A DNA stretch of 64,000 bases, taken from IMG/VR virus record IMGVR_UViG_3300021431_002946, positions 225,291-289,290 of that record. The stretch is one strand, 5' to 3'. The notes below the pieces were generated by a model, which was given only the letters and a program-made list of their open reading frames with translations, had not been told where the DNA came from and made no database searches. The translations under genes and the position numbers were made by a program. Position 1 is the stretch's first letter. Every line of letters begins with the position of its first letter. Below are positions 3,367 through 63,583 of this stretch, piece by piece. This DNA is from a virus. Its lineage: Duplodnaviria > Heunggongvirae > Uroviricota > Caudoviricetes.

Positions 3367-3831
3367 ATGAATTATTTTTTAAAGAAATGTATAGCTGAAG
3401 GGTGGCCAGTTGTTTGTGACTATGATGGTGTTTTATTTGAAGCACGATTTGAATATATAAGAGTTGGTGCTTGTAATAATGATGAAGAAATCAGAATAAA
3501 GCATGAACAAGGTTTATGGTTAATTACTACTCCAATTGGTTTTATGATAAATCTATTAAAAGATTTATCTAATCCAAAATTTGTATTATCACATATTCAT
3601 ACGGATATTGAAGAAAAAACAAAAATTAAACAATTAAATAAATATTATAATGGAATTCCTCTATTGAGAGCTAATTCTGTTGAAGAAAAAATTAAATATT
3701 TACAAGATATTTATGATAAATATGGTGGATTTATTTATATCGATGATACATTACCTTATATTCAAATATTTGAGAATGCATTAACTGAAGATACTATGCA
3801 TTTCTTCCATGTATCATCTTTATATGTATAA
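3367..3831 (+). CDS. HAD-superfamily hydrolase
   Basis: VCDYDGVL and IYIDDT motifs. Confidence 0.65.
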   Translation: MNYFLKKCIAEGWPVVCDYDGVLFEARFEYIRVGACNNDEEIRIKHEQGLWLITTPIGFMINLLKDLSNPKFVLSHIHTDIEEKTKIKQLNKYYNGIPLLRANSVEEKIKYLQDIYDKYGGFIYIDDTLPYIQIFENALTEDTMHFFHVSSLYV

Positions 3832-3858
3832 GAAAAAATAACATAATGGAGGATAAGT

Positions 3859-4077
3859 ATGGTAAAAGAATACGATTTTAATTATTCAGGTGGTTATATT
3901 ACAATACAAGATGCTGTAATTAAACTTGATTCTATTGATTATTACAGATTTGATCCTAATCAATTAGTCATGATTATTAATGGAGTAACTATTGGTTTTA
4001 CTTTAACAGAAAAAGATAATGTTGAATCAATTAAAACTCAATTACAAGACCTCTTTAATCCTAGAGAAATAGTATAA
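3859..4077 (+). CDS. hypothetical protein
   Basis: ORF with GGAGG RBS. Confidence 0.65.
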   Translation: MVKEYDFNYSGGYITIQDAVIKLDSIDYYRFDPNQLVMIINGVTIGFTLTEKDNVESIKTQLQDLFNPREIV

Positions 4078-6179: not shown

Positions 6180-6692
6180 ATGTATAAGCATCTTGAACAA
6201 TTAGATTTTAATTTTGGTGAAGAAATGTTTAGAAGTGCATTAGATCTTAAAAATAGTGATAAATATCATGAATATATGGTTGATGAATTTGAATCTGAAT
6301 TTGACGATTTAAACGAATTAGATGAAGTTATTGCTGAATTTTATGATCTTATTCAAAGTTTAACTCTTTATAAATCTGAAGGTTATGAATATATTGAATT
6401 AGCGGATGATCGAATTGATTTTGGAGTTGGACATTTAAAATTAACTGATGAAGATTATGTTCAATTAGAAATTAGTCAACAAGTATATTTAGATGACGCT
6501 TGTCTTGCATTTACCGAAAAGACAAATTCTGAAATATATTTACTTGGTAGAAGTGGAAGACATGTTTGTGTAGATTGTAATTTTGATAATGCACTTAGAT
6601 TAGAAGAATTATGCGAAGTACAAAAGAAATTACAAGATAGATATATTGAGGATATTCAAAATGAAGCAAAGAAGCTTGCAAAAGGAAAATAA
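6180..6692 (+). CDS. acidic hypothetical protein
   Basis: ORF with RBS. Confidence 0.7.
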   Translation: MYKHLEQLDFNFGEEMFRSALDLKNSDKYHEYMVDEFESEFDDLNELDEVIAEFYDLIQSLTLYKSEGYEYIELADDRIDFGVGHLKLTDEDYVQLEISQQVYLDDACLAFTEKTNSEIYLLGRSGRHVCVDCNFDNALRLEELCEVQKKLQDRYIEDIQNEAKKLAKGK

Positions 6693-6742
6693 TAAAGAAT
6701 TATTTATTTAATATAAATAATATTGAAAGGAAATTATGTAAT

Positions 6743-7291
6743 ATGATTGTAATAGGAGTAGATCTTGGTAACAAATCTAGGAATAGTATTTGTGTTATGC
6801 AAGATAGTAAATTATTAGAATGGAGTAGATTAAATTATTCTGATTCTAAAAATACTTGGGAGCATAGACAAAAGATAGTAAAGCAGATAAAAGAATATAT
6901 TAAAAAGTATAAGTTAAATAAAAAAGATTATCTTTTATTTGAACAAATATTCTTTAGTAGAGGATTATCTAGAATGGCAAATATAACAAGTATGGCATTC
7001 TTACAAGCAACTCTTATAAATGAATTTTCAAATAAAATTTCTATAAGTGAAGTACATGTACAATCTTGGAAATCTAAAGTATTAGGTTCAAGATCTGCTA
7101 CTAAAGATGACGCAGTTAATTATGTTGAAACTTATTATCCAAATGTAGATTTAGATATTATAGTAGAACATAAAAAGAAAGGTACTGAAATAATAAAAGA
7201 TAATGATACAGCTGACGCAGTATGCATAGCAAAATATGCATTTATTGTGGATCAAAAGAAGTTAGATGAGCATTTAGTTAATTATACATAA
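6743..7291 (+). CDS. RuvC-like Holliday junction resolvase
   Basis: VIGVDLG, FEQ, QSWK, DTADAVCIA catalytic pattern. Confidence 0.75.
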   Translation: MIVIGVDLGNKSRNSICVMQDSKLLEWSRLNYSDSKNTWEHRQKIVKQIKEYIKKYKLNKKDYLLFEQIFFSRGLSRMANITSMAFLQATLINEFSNKISISEVHVQSWKSKVLGSRSATKDDAVNYVETYYPNVDLDIIVEHKKKGTEIIKDNDTADAVCIAKYAFIVDQKKLDEHLVNYT

Positions 7292-53638: not shown

Positions 53639-53640
53639 AA

Positions 53641-53675
53641 AGTTTGATAAGTATCTTTTTAAAAACTTATTACCA
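53641..53675 (+). repeat. dispersed hairpin-CCA element X (copies at 55911, 59049, 59270, 59486)
   Basis: AGTTTG.TA(A/G)GT-loop-AAAAAC(T/C)TAT..CCA. Confidence 0.6.
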
Positions 53676-56200: not shown

Positions 56201-56322
56201 TTCTTGCATAAGAACTTCCTTAGTTTCCAAGCCGTGGGTTGTAGGTTCGAGTCCTACCTTCCTCATTTTGAGGAAGTAGCTCAATGGTAGAGCAACAGTC
56301 TCCCCATTAGTTCCAGCAAGAA
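56201..56322 (+). ncRNA. motif M copy 5 enclosing a circularly permuted tRNA (Gly-like): 3' half 56222-56265, 5' half 56270-56306
   Basis: T-arm plus CUUCCUC-A precede GAGGAAG plus D-arm; flanks pair UUCUUGC/GCAAGAA and GAACU/AGUUC. Confidence 0.75.
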
Positions 56323-58580: not shown

Positions 58581-58876
58581 TTGTGTGTAGTTTAAAAAGG
58601 TGCCAAAAAGTAAATCCTTAAAATAAAATACTTCTAGCGCAGAAGAGATATTAGTTGGAAACACTAATCATGCAAGCCATTAATTATTTACTTTTATTTA
58701 TTAATTTATTATAATAATTATGTTTAATCAATAGAGAAATCTATTATTAAATACCAGTCGAAAGTATGCAAGAATCACAAGCAGCTGGGGGTCCAAGCCT
58801 GGCATCCATAAAAGATTAAGTGCACATGTGTCTTAATGGATAACGTTGGGGTAGTGTCCAGCCTTTCACACCAAAT

Positions 58877-58949
58877 CGGGGTGTAGCGCAGTTGGTAGCG
58901 CACGTGCTTTGGGAGCATGGGGCCGCAGGTTCAAGTCCTGTCACTCCGA
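58877..58949 (+). tRNA. tRNA-Pro(UGG), CCA not encoded
   Basis: Canonical cloverleaf. Confidence 0.92.
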
Positions 58950-59303
58950 CTTTGAATATAATATAGGGAGCGTTAATTTAATTAATGAGATAATAATAGC
59001 TTTATTAAGCTATATTGTATTTTAAGCAAATAAGAATATCTATTTAAAAGTTTGATAAGTTCTTTTTAAAAATTTATTACCAAGACAAAGAAAAGTCTTT
59101 AAAACACCTGGCCGGACCAAGTTCCTATTTATAGGTCACCAATGATAATACTTGGAAGAGGTCCACCATCTAAGATAGGTAAAGTCAAGAGAACTCCAGG
59201 GAAAATCTCTGCAGAAGAGGGTTGTGCCTCTTCATTTTATAGCAGGAATTCCAATTCTTGCAATCAAAAAGTTTGTTAGGTTCTTTTTAAAAACCTATCA
59301 CCA

Positions 59304-59484
59304 GTAGAGGCGTGCTGATAAATTCAGCGTGCGGGTTCGAATCCCGTCTACTTCATCAAATATGGTTGAGTTTCGTAGGTAGTAACGAGCCTGATGAAGT
59401 TCAGGTACGGCGGCAGGTGCAAATCCTCCCCAACCACCAAAAATGAAGTAGTGGTGAAACGGCAAACACCGCCTCGTTCCCAAA
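59304..59484 (+). ncRNA. candidate circularly permuted class II tRNA: 3' half 59304-59355, 5' half 59445-59484
   Basis: GAAGUAG/CUACUUC acceptor and GCCUC/GAGGC anticodon stem form only across the permuted halves. Confidence 0.55.
59364..59439 (+). pseudogene. atypical tRNA-like element nested between the permuted halves
   Basis: GGUUG/CAACC plus ACCA, D-arm, CCUGA/UCAGG with 6-nt loop, T-loop UGCAAAU. Confidence 0.5.
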
Positions 59485-59519
59485 GAGTTTGGTAGGTTCT
59501 CTTTAAAAACTTATTGCCA

Positions 59520-59672
59520 GAAAGAATGGTGTAAAAGTAGTTTGTACCTGTTATTAAATTGGCGCCAAACAATGATAGAGTACAGCGGCTACTACTATAC
59601 GAAGCTGGTATAGTGAACACAGTTGGATGTTGTGTCCAAATGATGTTAGTTCGAGTCTGACTTCTTTCACCA
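59520..59672 (+). ncRNA. expanded tRNA-like RNA (153 nt)
   Basis: GAAAGAA/UUCUUUC plus ACCA; GUUAG-UUCGAGU-CUGAC T-arm; multi-hairpin interior. Confidence 0.6.
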
Positions 59673-59834
59673 ATGAGGTAGATCCCAAGTACCTCTTTTA
59701 GAAAAACCTTGGCGTGGAGATACTGTATAGCACACGAAATAACGGCAGTACATAGGAGAAGCAGAACTTCTAACAGTATTCATACGGATGAACGTGATCT
59801 AAGAGGTTTACGACAAACAAATCTGCATTAATAT

Positions 59835-60023
59835 GAAGTAGTGGCGGAATAGACATAAGATTTGGCACACAATGGTATCTTATGTGATAGTAAACGCAAG
59901 GCTGGAATGTGTATGCTCATTAAGAGTGCAAGTTCGAGTGAAAGGCTCGATGAGGTTGGCAGAGTAACCGACACACGACATTTGGCTAACTGTCTTGTTA
60001 GGTGCAAATCCTAACCTACTTCA
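59835..60023 (+). ncRNA. expanded tRNA-like RNA (189 nt)
   Basis: GAAGUAG/CUACUUC; D-loop insert ACAUAAGAU/AUCUUAUGU; three-hairpin domain in place of anticodon; GUUAGG-UGCAAAU-CCUAAC. Confidence 0.6.
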
Positions 60024-60121
60024 TTAAAATCTTAAAATTATATATTTTATCTTACATTAAATAGTTTTAAGATAAAGTTATCGATATTGGTCTTGACTAC
60101 TTAGGTTAAAGTATCAAATAT

Positions 60122-60197
60122 GCCTATGTATTCCAATGGCAGAGAAAGTCGGCTTAGAACCGATACAGTGAGGGTTCGACTCCCTTCATAGGTACCA
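60122..60197 (+). tRNA. tRNA-Leu(UAG), short variable loop
   Basis: Cloverleaf, CCA. Confidence 0.9.
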
Positions 60198-62761: not shown

Positions 62762-63055
62762 GCCATTTTTCCATTTCTTTTGCAGTTTGCTGGTTCTGCA
62801 AATTCCAATCCATAATAAAACCTCTGTGCTTAATAAAGTCACGCCCCCCATAAAAAAAGAACTGTACAATAAATAAAAACCAGCATTTTAATAAAATTTA
62901 GTTTACTATTTAGAAAATTGTATATAAAATATTATATACTATTATGAATTACGGAACCAGGGTTGAAAAATTCGTTAGAGTAAACTTTTGGTTTGTAAGG
63001 GCATAATATGAAATGAGAAACATTCGAAATTTTTCACTCATGTTATGCCAAGTAC

Positions 63056-63466: not shown

Positions 63467-63583
63467 ATAATAATCGTATAGTTTTTGGTAGTTTTTTCTA
63501 TATGATTATTTTTATATATATGAAGTTTTAAGGCATGCCGCTATTCTAGGAAATTTTTATATATATAAAAACTACCATTATAT

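What the first reader, a model, noticed from the sequence alone, without database searches (positions are those of the whole stretch)
59270..59519. Second candidate permuted tRNA, with another tRNA-like gene nested in its linker
Seen: a 3' half (GAGGC, variable arm GCUGA/UCAGC, T-arm, CUACUUC-A; 59304-59355) lies upstream of a 5' half (GAAGUAG, Leu-type D-arm, GCCUC-GUUCCCAAA; 59445-59484). Acceptor and anticodon stems pair only across the halves. The flanking X elements cross-pair (UGGUAGGUU 59490-98 with AACCUAUCA 59292-300), extending the anticodon helix. The rebuilt loop is 9 nt with CCC at its centre on a class II, A73 body, a possible identity/anticodon mismatch. Caveat: 59835-60023 has the same acceptor sequence, so rearranged debris is an alternative.
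Basis: partly seen in the sequence, partly recalled or inferred. Interest (0 to 1): 0.7.

Follow-up and report, generated by a model that had tools for sequence, protein, structure and literature searches.

The report
Swapped-half tRNA mimic in phages
A giant phage carries a tRNA-shaped RNA gene whose two halves lie in swapped order; three other phages keep the same layout with matching base-pair changes, so it is a real, uncatalogued RNA family that most likely imitates a tRNA rather than reading codons.

Summary
The swapped halves are real and are not debris. The window lies in the tRNA array of a circular 467-kb phage. The layout recurs in independent assemblies and in three contigs of other phages (L070, L078, L088). 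Across the four copies all 80 acceptor, anticodon-position, T and D stem cells pair, and 11 of 20 pairs change on both sides.

Their acceptor stem is closed by a 4-5 nt loop, so the nested tRNA-like gene is optional; it is a free cassette, 77/78 identical to a standalone copy in another phage. No anticodon is conserved. X is a self-folding, CCA-ended hairpin, and two relatives have a tRNA instead of the upstream X. The phage has a CCA-adding-type enzyme; no splicing endonuclease, RtcB, Rnl2-type ligase or Ro60 was found.

Best reading: a non-decoding, leucine-type tRNA mimic with YrlA-like arm order, here probably cut into two pieces. Function and expression are untested. The scan noted other permuted phage tRNA mimics before, but no sequence look-alike of this one.

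The parts
59267..59303 (+). X2: hairpin element (9-bp stem, U/A-rich loop) ending in CCA, abutting the first base of the permuted RNA
   Evidence: 18 distinct X copies keep 156 of 162 stem cells paired
59304..59355 (+). 3' half of the tRNA-like body, encoded first: anticodon-position strand, long variable arm, T arm, acceptor 3' strand, A73; no encoded CCA
   Evidence: 34/45 identical to the L070 homolog over variable and T arms
59356..59444 (+). Linker in the acceptor loop (90 nt counting A73); 4-5 nt in the three relatives
59364..59439 (+). B: nested standalone tRNA-like gene with A/T-rich leader, 6-nt anticodon-position loop, UGCAAAU T loop, A73 and encoded CCA
   Evidence: 77/78 identical to a free-standing copy at L077:14046-14123; missed by ARAGORN and Rfam
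59445..59482 (+). 5' half, encoded second: acceptor 5' strand, U8-G9, leucine-type D arm (A15, GG), anticodon-position strand, short tail ending CCA
   Evidence: 25/28 identical to the L070 homolog over D arm and stem; tail ends CCA in 3 of 4 copies
59483..59519 (+). X3: hairpin-CCA element directly after the permuted RNA; an X stands at this place in all four copies
59046..59082 (+). X1: further copy of the hairpin-CCA element (a fourth lies at 53639-53675, before tRNA-Val)
59835..60023 (+). Collinear tRNA-like RNA with the same acceptor sequence; member of a conserved collinear family without a canonical anticodon loop, not the missing partner of the halves
   Evidence: the same acceptor occurs in collinear RNAs of L001 (4 copies), L003, L070, L077

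Best explanation
The stretch encodes one member of a small family of circularly permuted, class II (leucine-type elbow) tRNA mimics shared among phage tRNA arrays. Shown: arm order variable-T-acceptor-D, closed by the helix at the anticodon position; conserved elbow bases (U8, A15-U48, D-loop GG, T-loop UUCGA); a first G directly after an upstream CCA (from X or a tRNA); a 3' tail ending in CCA (CCG in L070) directly before an X. Inferred: it is cut out of the long tRNA-array transcript at these CCA boundaries and folds into a tRNA L shape with no anticodon. In the relatives it stays one piece of 93-95 nt with a capped acceptor arm. In this phage the acceptor loop holds the tRNA-like cassette B, so RNase P cuts at 59364 and 59445 plus 3' trimming and CCA addition would release B and leave a two-piece RNA with an open A73 acceptor end that host LeuRS might charge. 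Most likely role (inferred, untested): a decoy or ligand for proteins that read the tRNA elbow, such as tRNA-attacking defence nucleases or tRNA-handling enzymes, not codon reading.
For: Three homologs from other phage contigs with the same order. 80 of 80 stem cells paired, 11 of 20 pairs changed on both sides. A covariance model built from L078 and L088 alone finds L070 at 48 bits, E about 9e-12, with no broken pair. The permuted cloverleaf lies within 0-1.8 kcal/mol of the minimum-energy fold in all four. Acceptor sequence and discriminator vary freely among the closed-loop copies and no anticodon is conserved, which fits shape rather than decoding. M. smegmatis YrlA has the same arm order and is cut by RNase P and CCA-tailed when its acceptor stem is 7 bp (PMC4201824). 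The phage encodes a PF01743+HD nucleotidyltransferase of the CCA-adding type. Three other recurring non-tRNA RNAs in these arrays also start 0-1 nt after a CCA supplied either by X or by another RNA.
Against: Only four distinct copies, and two of them (L078, L088) are close relatives. No expression, end-mapping or binding data. The model finds the window copy only in part (15 bits) because of the 90-nt linker; its homology rests on BLAST (79% over 91 nt, 83% over 65 nt against L070) and hand parsing. In the window copy an alternative 9-bp variable-arm helix competes with the T and anticodon-position stems. Close relatives of both phage lineages lack the element (L010, L077, L082), so it is dispensable. 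No partner protein was identified.
Confidence: 0.57

Rival explanations
1. The family is real, but this copy is a recent recombinant: the short acceptor hairpin of the permuted RNA was replaced by a piece of an array running from the 3' end of one collinear GAAGTAG-type gene, through B, to the 5' start of the next. The copy may be decaying or may serve only to carry B.
For: The arms match the L070 permuted RNA (34/45 and 25/28), but both acceptor strands match the collinear family 7/7 and the permuted homolog only 1/7. B is 77/78 identical to a free copy in another phage lineage, which suggests recent movement. The window copy has a competing fold.
Against: All 20 stem pairs of the window copy are intact, and three strains show no change in it (too few SNPs to prove selection). 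The same data fit the opposite history, in which this copy keeps the ancestral acceptor and linker and the relatives lost them. I could not decide the direction.
Confidence: 0.2
2. It is a true permuted tRNA gene: the ends at the anticodon position are trimmed and ligated, the linker is removed by RNase P and 3' trimming, and a leucine-charged tRNA with a non-leucine anticodon results.
For: Known permuted tRNA genes have linkers of 1-74 nt and are often class II (PMC3978253). The second tail base is U in all four copies, as U33 would be, and UCC follows in three. The window copy has an open acceptor with A73 and an A/T-rich leader like normal tRNAs.
Against: Joined ends give 10, 7, 9 and 9 nt loops; a cut at 37/38 gives a purine at 32 in all copies, C37 here, and anticodons UCC or CCG. 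No bulge-helix-bulge motif at the ends. No tRNA splicing endonuclease, RtcB or Rnl2-type ligase found in the complete genome (the T4 Rnl1 search had no working control). The acceptor sequence is unconstrained, with two G-U pairs in L078 and L088. A host ligase is not excluded.
Confidence: 0.12
3. It is a YrlA-type Y RNA that binds a Ro60 (Rsr) protein.
For: Same order of variable, T, acceptor and D arms as YrlA (PMC4201824). L088 begins with a near match to the GNCGAA motif.
Against: The motif is absent in the window and L070 copies. No TROVE gene in this genome or in two X-bearing phage records. Rfam YrlA does not score on any copy tested. There is no long Ro-binding stem. The full records behind L077, L078 and L088 could not be searched, and a host Ro60 is untested.
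Confidence: 0.07
4. Rearranged debris or an assembly error at the X repeats.
For: The X repeats flank the unit, and a gene with the same acceptor sequence lies 400 nt downstream.
Against: Same layout in independent assemblies and conserved with compensatory changes in three other phage contigs.
Confidence: 0.03

Closest known systems
YrlA-type bacterial and phage Y RNAs (Rfam RF02553; Chen et al. 2014, PMC4201824)
   Same: Permuted tRNA-like domain in the order variable, T, acceptor, D; acceptor closed by a loop; the 7-bp form can be opened by RNase P and CCA-tailed.
   Different: No conserved Ro-binding motif or long stem, no Ro60 gene found, no Rfam score. It has a full class II variable arm and a leucine-type D arm, its ends lie at the anticodon-position helix with a CCA tail, and it is tied to the X element.
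Circularly permuted tRNA genes of C. merolae, other algae and Thermofilum pendens (Soma 2014, PMC3978253)
   Same: 3' half before 5' half, break in the anticodon region, variable linker in the acceptor loop, class II body.
   Different: Those use a bulge-helix-bulge motif, a splicing endonuclease and a ligase to rebuild a normal tRNA. Here there is no such motif, the enzymes were not found in the phage, and no anticodon is conserved. That review lists no bacterial or phage case.
Two-piece (permuted) tmRNA (Rfam RF04321; Keiler et al. 2000, cited in PMC10085705)
   Same: [quoted passage not shown]
   Different: No tag reading frame and no alanine G3-U70 pair; the Rfam match is a T-arm-only hit at E 1.4.

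Membership tests
YrlA Y RNA | Permuted tRNA-like domain in order V-T-AS-D | tested here: met
   all four copies
YrlA Y RNA | 5' GNCGAAN(0-1)G Ro-binding motif | tested here: not met
   absent in the window and L070 copies; only a near match in L088
YrlA Y RNA | Ro60/TROVE gene nearby | tested here: not met
   no PF05731 match in the complete genome, controls rang; records of L077, L078, L088 not searchable
YrlA Y RNA | Match to Rfam RF02553 | tested here: not met
   no hit on the window, L070 or L088 copies at E up to 5-10
YrlA Y RNA | Binds Ro60 | not testable with these tools
   needs a pull-down
BHB-type permuted tRNA gene | 3' half upstream of 5' half with pairable cloverleaf | tested here: met
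BHB-type permuted tRNA gene | Bulge-helix-bulge motif at the joined ends | tested here: not met
   the X2/X3 helix has one 3-nt bulge far from the junction and cannot form in L078 or L088, which lack the upstream X; judged by eye and from folds
BHB-type permuted tRNA gene | Splicing endonuclease and RNA ligase available | tested here: inconclusive
   PF01974, PF01139 and PF09414 not found in the phage; T4 Rnl1 search uncontrolled; host unknown
BHB-type permuted tRNA gene | Rebuilds a canonical 7-nt anticodon loop with a conserved anticodon | tested here: not met
   loops of 10, 7, 9, 9 nt if ends are joined; purine 32; UCC versus CCG
Two-piece tmRNA | Alanine acceptor with G3-U70 and a tag-coding piece | tested here: not met
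   A3-U70; no tmRNA call by ARAGORN, T-arm-only Rfam hit

The most novel reading that the evidence does not exclude
The window copy matures, using only ordinary tRNA-trimming enzymes and the phage's CCA-adding enzyme, into a two-piece tRNA-shaped RNA with a CCA end on both arms (a chargeable leucine-type acceptor and a second CCA at the anticodon-position helix). It would also preserve the intermediate by which a collinear phage tRNA-like gene became circularly permuted around a neighbouring gene.
Probability: 0.18. Interest if true: 0.8.

Novelty: new variant of a known kind. Interest (0 to 1): 0.56.

Why it matters
Standard tools miss or miscall these genes, so phage tRNA arrays hold more RNA types than their annotation shows. 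The family extends permuted tRNA mimics beyond Ro60-linked Y RNAs to a class II body that moves between phage lineages as a cassette. It offers a natural series, from collinear relatives through an open long-linker form to closed short-loop forms, on which the origin of circular permutation and the decoy role of phage tRNA-like RNAs can be tested directly.

Tried and rejected
Exact-pattern scans of IMG/VR for the long-linker form or the 5' half found nothing; a short-linker scan gave only chance hits inside genes. GTDB genomes: nothing. Annotated phage collection: no homolog; the hit in LR756502 is two adjacent normal tRNAs, and the Desulfovibrio phage hit covers only half an X. The single metagenome scan gave 55 stretches, mostly ordinary tRNA-Leu or chance; it yielded one new homolog, L070. 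The covariance model found no further member in 25 sources or four phage records; weaker hits are junctions of neighbouring tRNAs or the other permuted family at 56228. ARAGORN with introns calls a tRNA-Tyr at 59445-59672; I rejected it because it joins the 5' half to the next RNA's 3' end, which pairs better with its own 5' strand at 59520. X as a CCA-ended intron of the anticodon loop: rejected, because cutting at the X stem would leave a loop of about 17 nt. Weak Rfam hits to wcaG (E 2.1), Ysr197 (E 2.8) and permuted tmRNA (E 1.4) are at chance level. No class I synthetase of the PF00133 type in the phage. No promoter or terminator above chance in 58900-60150. Literature searches found no report of permuted tRNA or such mimics in phage arrays beyond YrlA; the library lacks most subscription papers.

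Full report
Setting. The window lies in a complete 467,383-base virus record with direct terminal repeats, 27% G+C, read by the standard code. The finding sits in a 12-kb array of 53 ARAGORN tRNAs. Neither ARAGORN nor Rfam calls anything at 59270-59520 beyond a T-arm fragment.

Observation. The sequence shows a 3' tRNA half at 59304-59355, a tRNA-like gene B at 59364-59439, and a 5' half at 59445-59482, between two copies of element X. Acceptor and anticodon-position stems are perfect and pair only across the halves. Among the phage's ordinary tRNAs such a 7/7 acceptor match between different genes occurs once in 2550 combinations. The fully permuted cloverleaf scores -59.7 kcal/mol against a minimum of -60.4, although a longer variable-arm helix competes with it. 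Independent assemblies have the same layout, so it is not an artefact.

Homologs. A metagenome scan for X followed closely by a T arm found L070, a tRNA array of a different phage, with X, the permuted body and X again. Following a protein of L070 to longer contigs gave two more copies, L078 and L088, in phages of that same group. All four keep the order variable arm, T arm, acceptor, D arm. All 80 cells of the four main stems pair, and 11 of 20 pairs change on both sides; the variable arm also differs yet pairs. A covariance model from L078 and L088 recovers L070 at 48 bits with no broken pair. The debris reading therefore fails. The sample is small, and L078 and L088 are close to each other.

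What the homologs change. First, their acceptor stem is closed by 4-5 nt, so B is not part of the design. B is a free cassette with its own leader and CCA, 77/78 identical to a standalone copy in L077. Second, no anticodon is conserved: joining the ends gives loops of 10, 7, 9 and 9 nt, and a cut at 37/38 gives a purine at 32 and UCC or CCG. Third, only the downstream X is constant; L078 and L088 have tRNA-Asn upstream. What all four share is a first G directly after a CCA, and a tail ending in CCA (CCG in L070) before X.

Element X. Eighteen distinct copies keep 156 of 162 stem cells paired within the same copy, with G-U and G-C/A-U exchanges, so X is a self-hairpin, and any two copies can cross-pair. 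X2's 3' arm pairs as well with X copies from L070 as with X3. X stands between RNAs, and three other recurring RNAs of these arrays always start 0-1 nt after a CCA, given either by X or by another RNA. I infer that X is a punctuation mark for processing. A rival lead: X's loop and 3' arm match the E. coli rrnB boxA region printed in PMC2176067 at 14.1 of 20 bases on average, against 9.7 in shuffles. That comparison was made after seeing a weak alignment, and the B. subtilis boxA differs (PMC13753749), so it is only a lead.

The shared acceptor. The window copy has the arms of the permuted family and the acceptor of the collinear family. Either it keeps the ancestral state from which the short-loop forms arose, or it is a recombinant. 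B's near identity to a free copy leans towards recent exchange; I could not settle this.

Enzymes. The phage encodes a nucleotidyltransferase with PF01743, PF12627 and HD domains, as CCA-adding enzymes have. No RtcB, Rnl2-type ligase, tRNA splicing endonuclease, Ro60 or PF00133-type synthetase was found, with working controls. The T4 Rnl1 search had no control. The host is unknown.

Mechanism. Shown: permuted order, covarying stems, conserved elbow bases, CCA boundaries, optional linker. Inferred: release from the array transcript at the CCA boundaries, folding to an L shape without an anticodon and, in this phage, opening of the acceptor by RNase P and CCA addition, as reported for M. smegmatis YrlA (PMC4201824). 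That LeuRS reads A73 and the elbow rather than the anticodon is from my own knowledge; charging is untested. A decoy or ligand role for elbow-reading proteins is my best guess at function.

Comparison and verdict. It works like YrlA in architecture but fails three YrlA membership tests. It resembles algal and archaeal permuted tRNA genes in layout (PMC3978253) but lacks their motif and a conserved anticodon. I found no description in the papers I could search. Earlier notes of this scan report several other permuted phage tRNA mimics; they are unchecked, gave me the YrlA lead, and none is a sequence look-alike of this family. Verdict: real, conserved, a new variant of a known kind; interest 0.56.

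Noticed in passing
window 53639-53675, 59046-59082, 59267-59303, 59483-59519; L001, L002, L003, L010, L070, L077, L078, L082, L088: Element X recurs in at least ten phage contigs as a CCA-ended hairpin between RNAs; its loop and 3' arm resemble the E. coli rRNA boxA region (14.1/20 versus 9.7 shuffled), so antitermination is a rival to a processing role.
   Followed up: partly
window 59835-60023; L001 (four copies), L003, L070:523-607 (- strand), L077:13348-13431: Collinear tRNA-shaped RNAs with a nearly invariant GAAGTAG acceptor and A73 but very different interiors and no canonical anticodon loop; the acceptor looks like a recognition site.
   Followed up: partly
L077:14046-14123: Standalone copy of the nested tRNA-like gene B, 77/78 identical, in a 105-kb contig of another phage group: recent exchange of RNA cassettes between phages.
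   Followed up: yes
L070:839-918 (- strand): An 80-nt gene that is only the tRNA-like domain of tmRNA (Rfam tmRNA 63 bits with about 300 model positions missing).
   Followed up: no
L002, about 3830-3884 (- strand): X is followed by a permuted T-arm/D-arm elbow with almost no acceptor stem, closed by a 6-bp helix: a second, smaller permuted form.
   Followed up: no
L084:5969-6070; L010:1476-1554; window 56228-56305: Class I permuted tRNA-like RNAs with a 5-nt acceptor loop; the L010 and window copies are homologous, and L084 may belong to the same family.
   Followed up: no
window 58752-58874 and 59670-59848: Further uncatalogued RNAs conserved in other phages (72% in L002; 93% in L001 and 84% in L003).
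   Followed up: no
window 58581-58680: Another tRNA-like RNA ending in CCA with an atypical T loop, conserved at 79% in L010.
   Followed up: no
window about 62783-62888 and 63480-63580: X-like arms that enclose 70-90 nt instead of a short loop; similar forms occur in L010.
   Followed up: no
L010, about 6380-7170: About 800 nt without a called gene, richer in G+C than its surroundings, inside the tRNA array: possibly a large structured RNA.
   Followed up: no
L012:1142-1214: ARAGORN calls a tRNA with anticodon TTA (ochre suppressor type) in a related phage.
   Followed up: no
window 59445-59672: ARAGORN with intron search reports a false intron-containing tRNA-Tyr that joins the permuted 5' half to the neighbouring RNA's 3' end.
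   Followed up: yes
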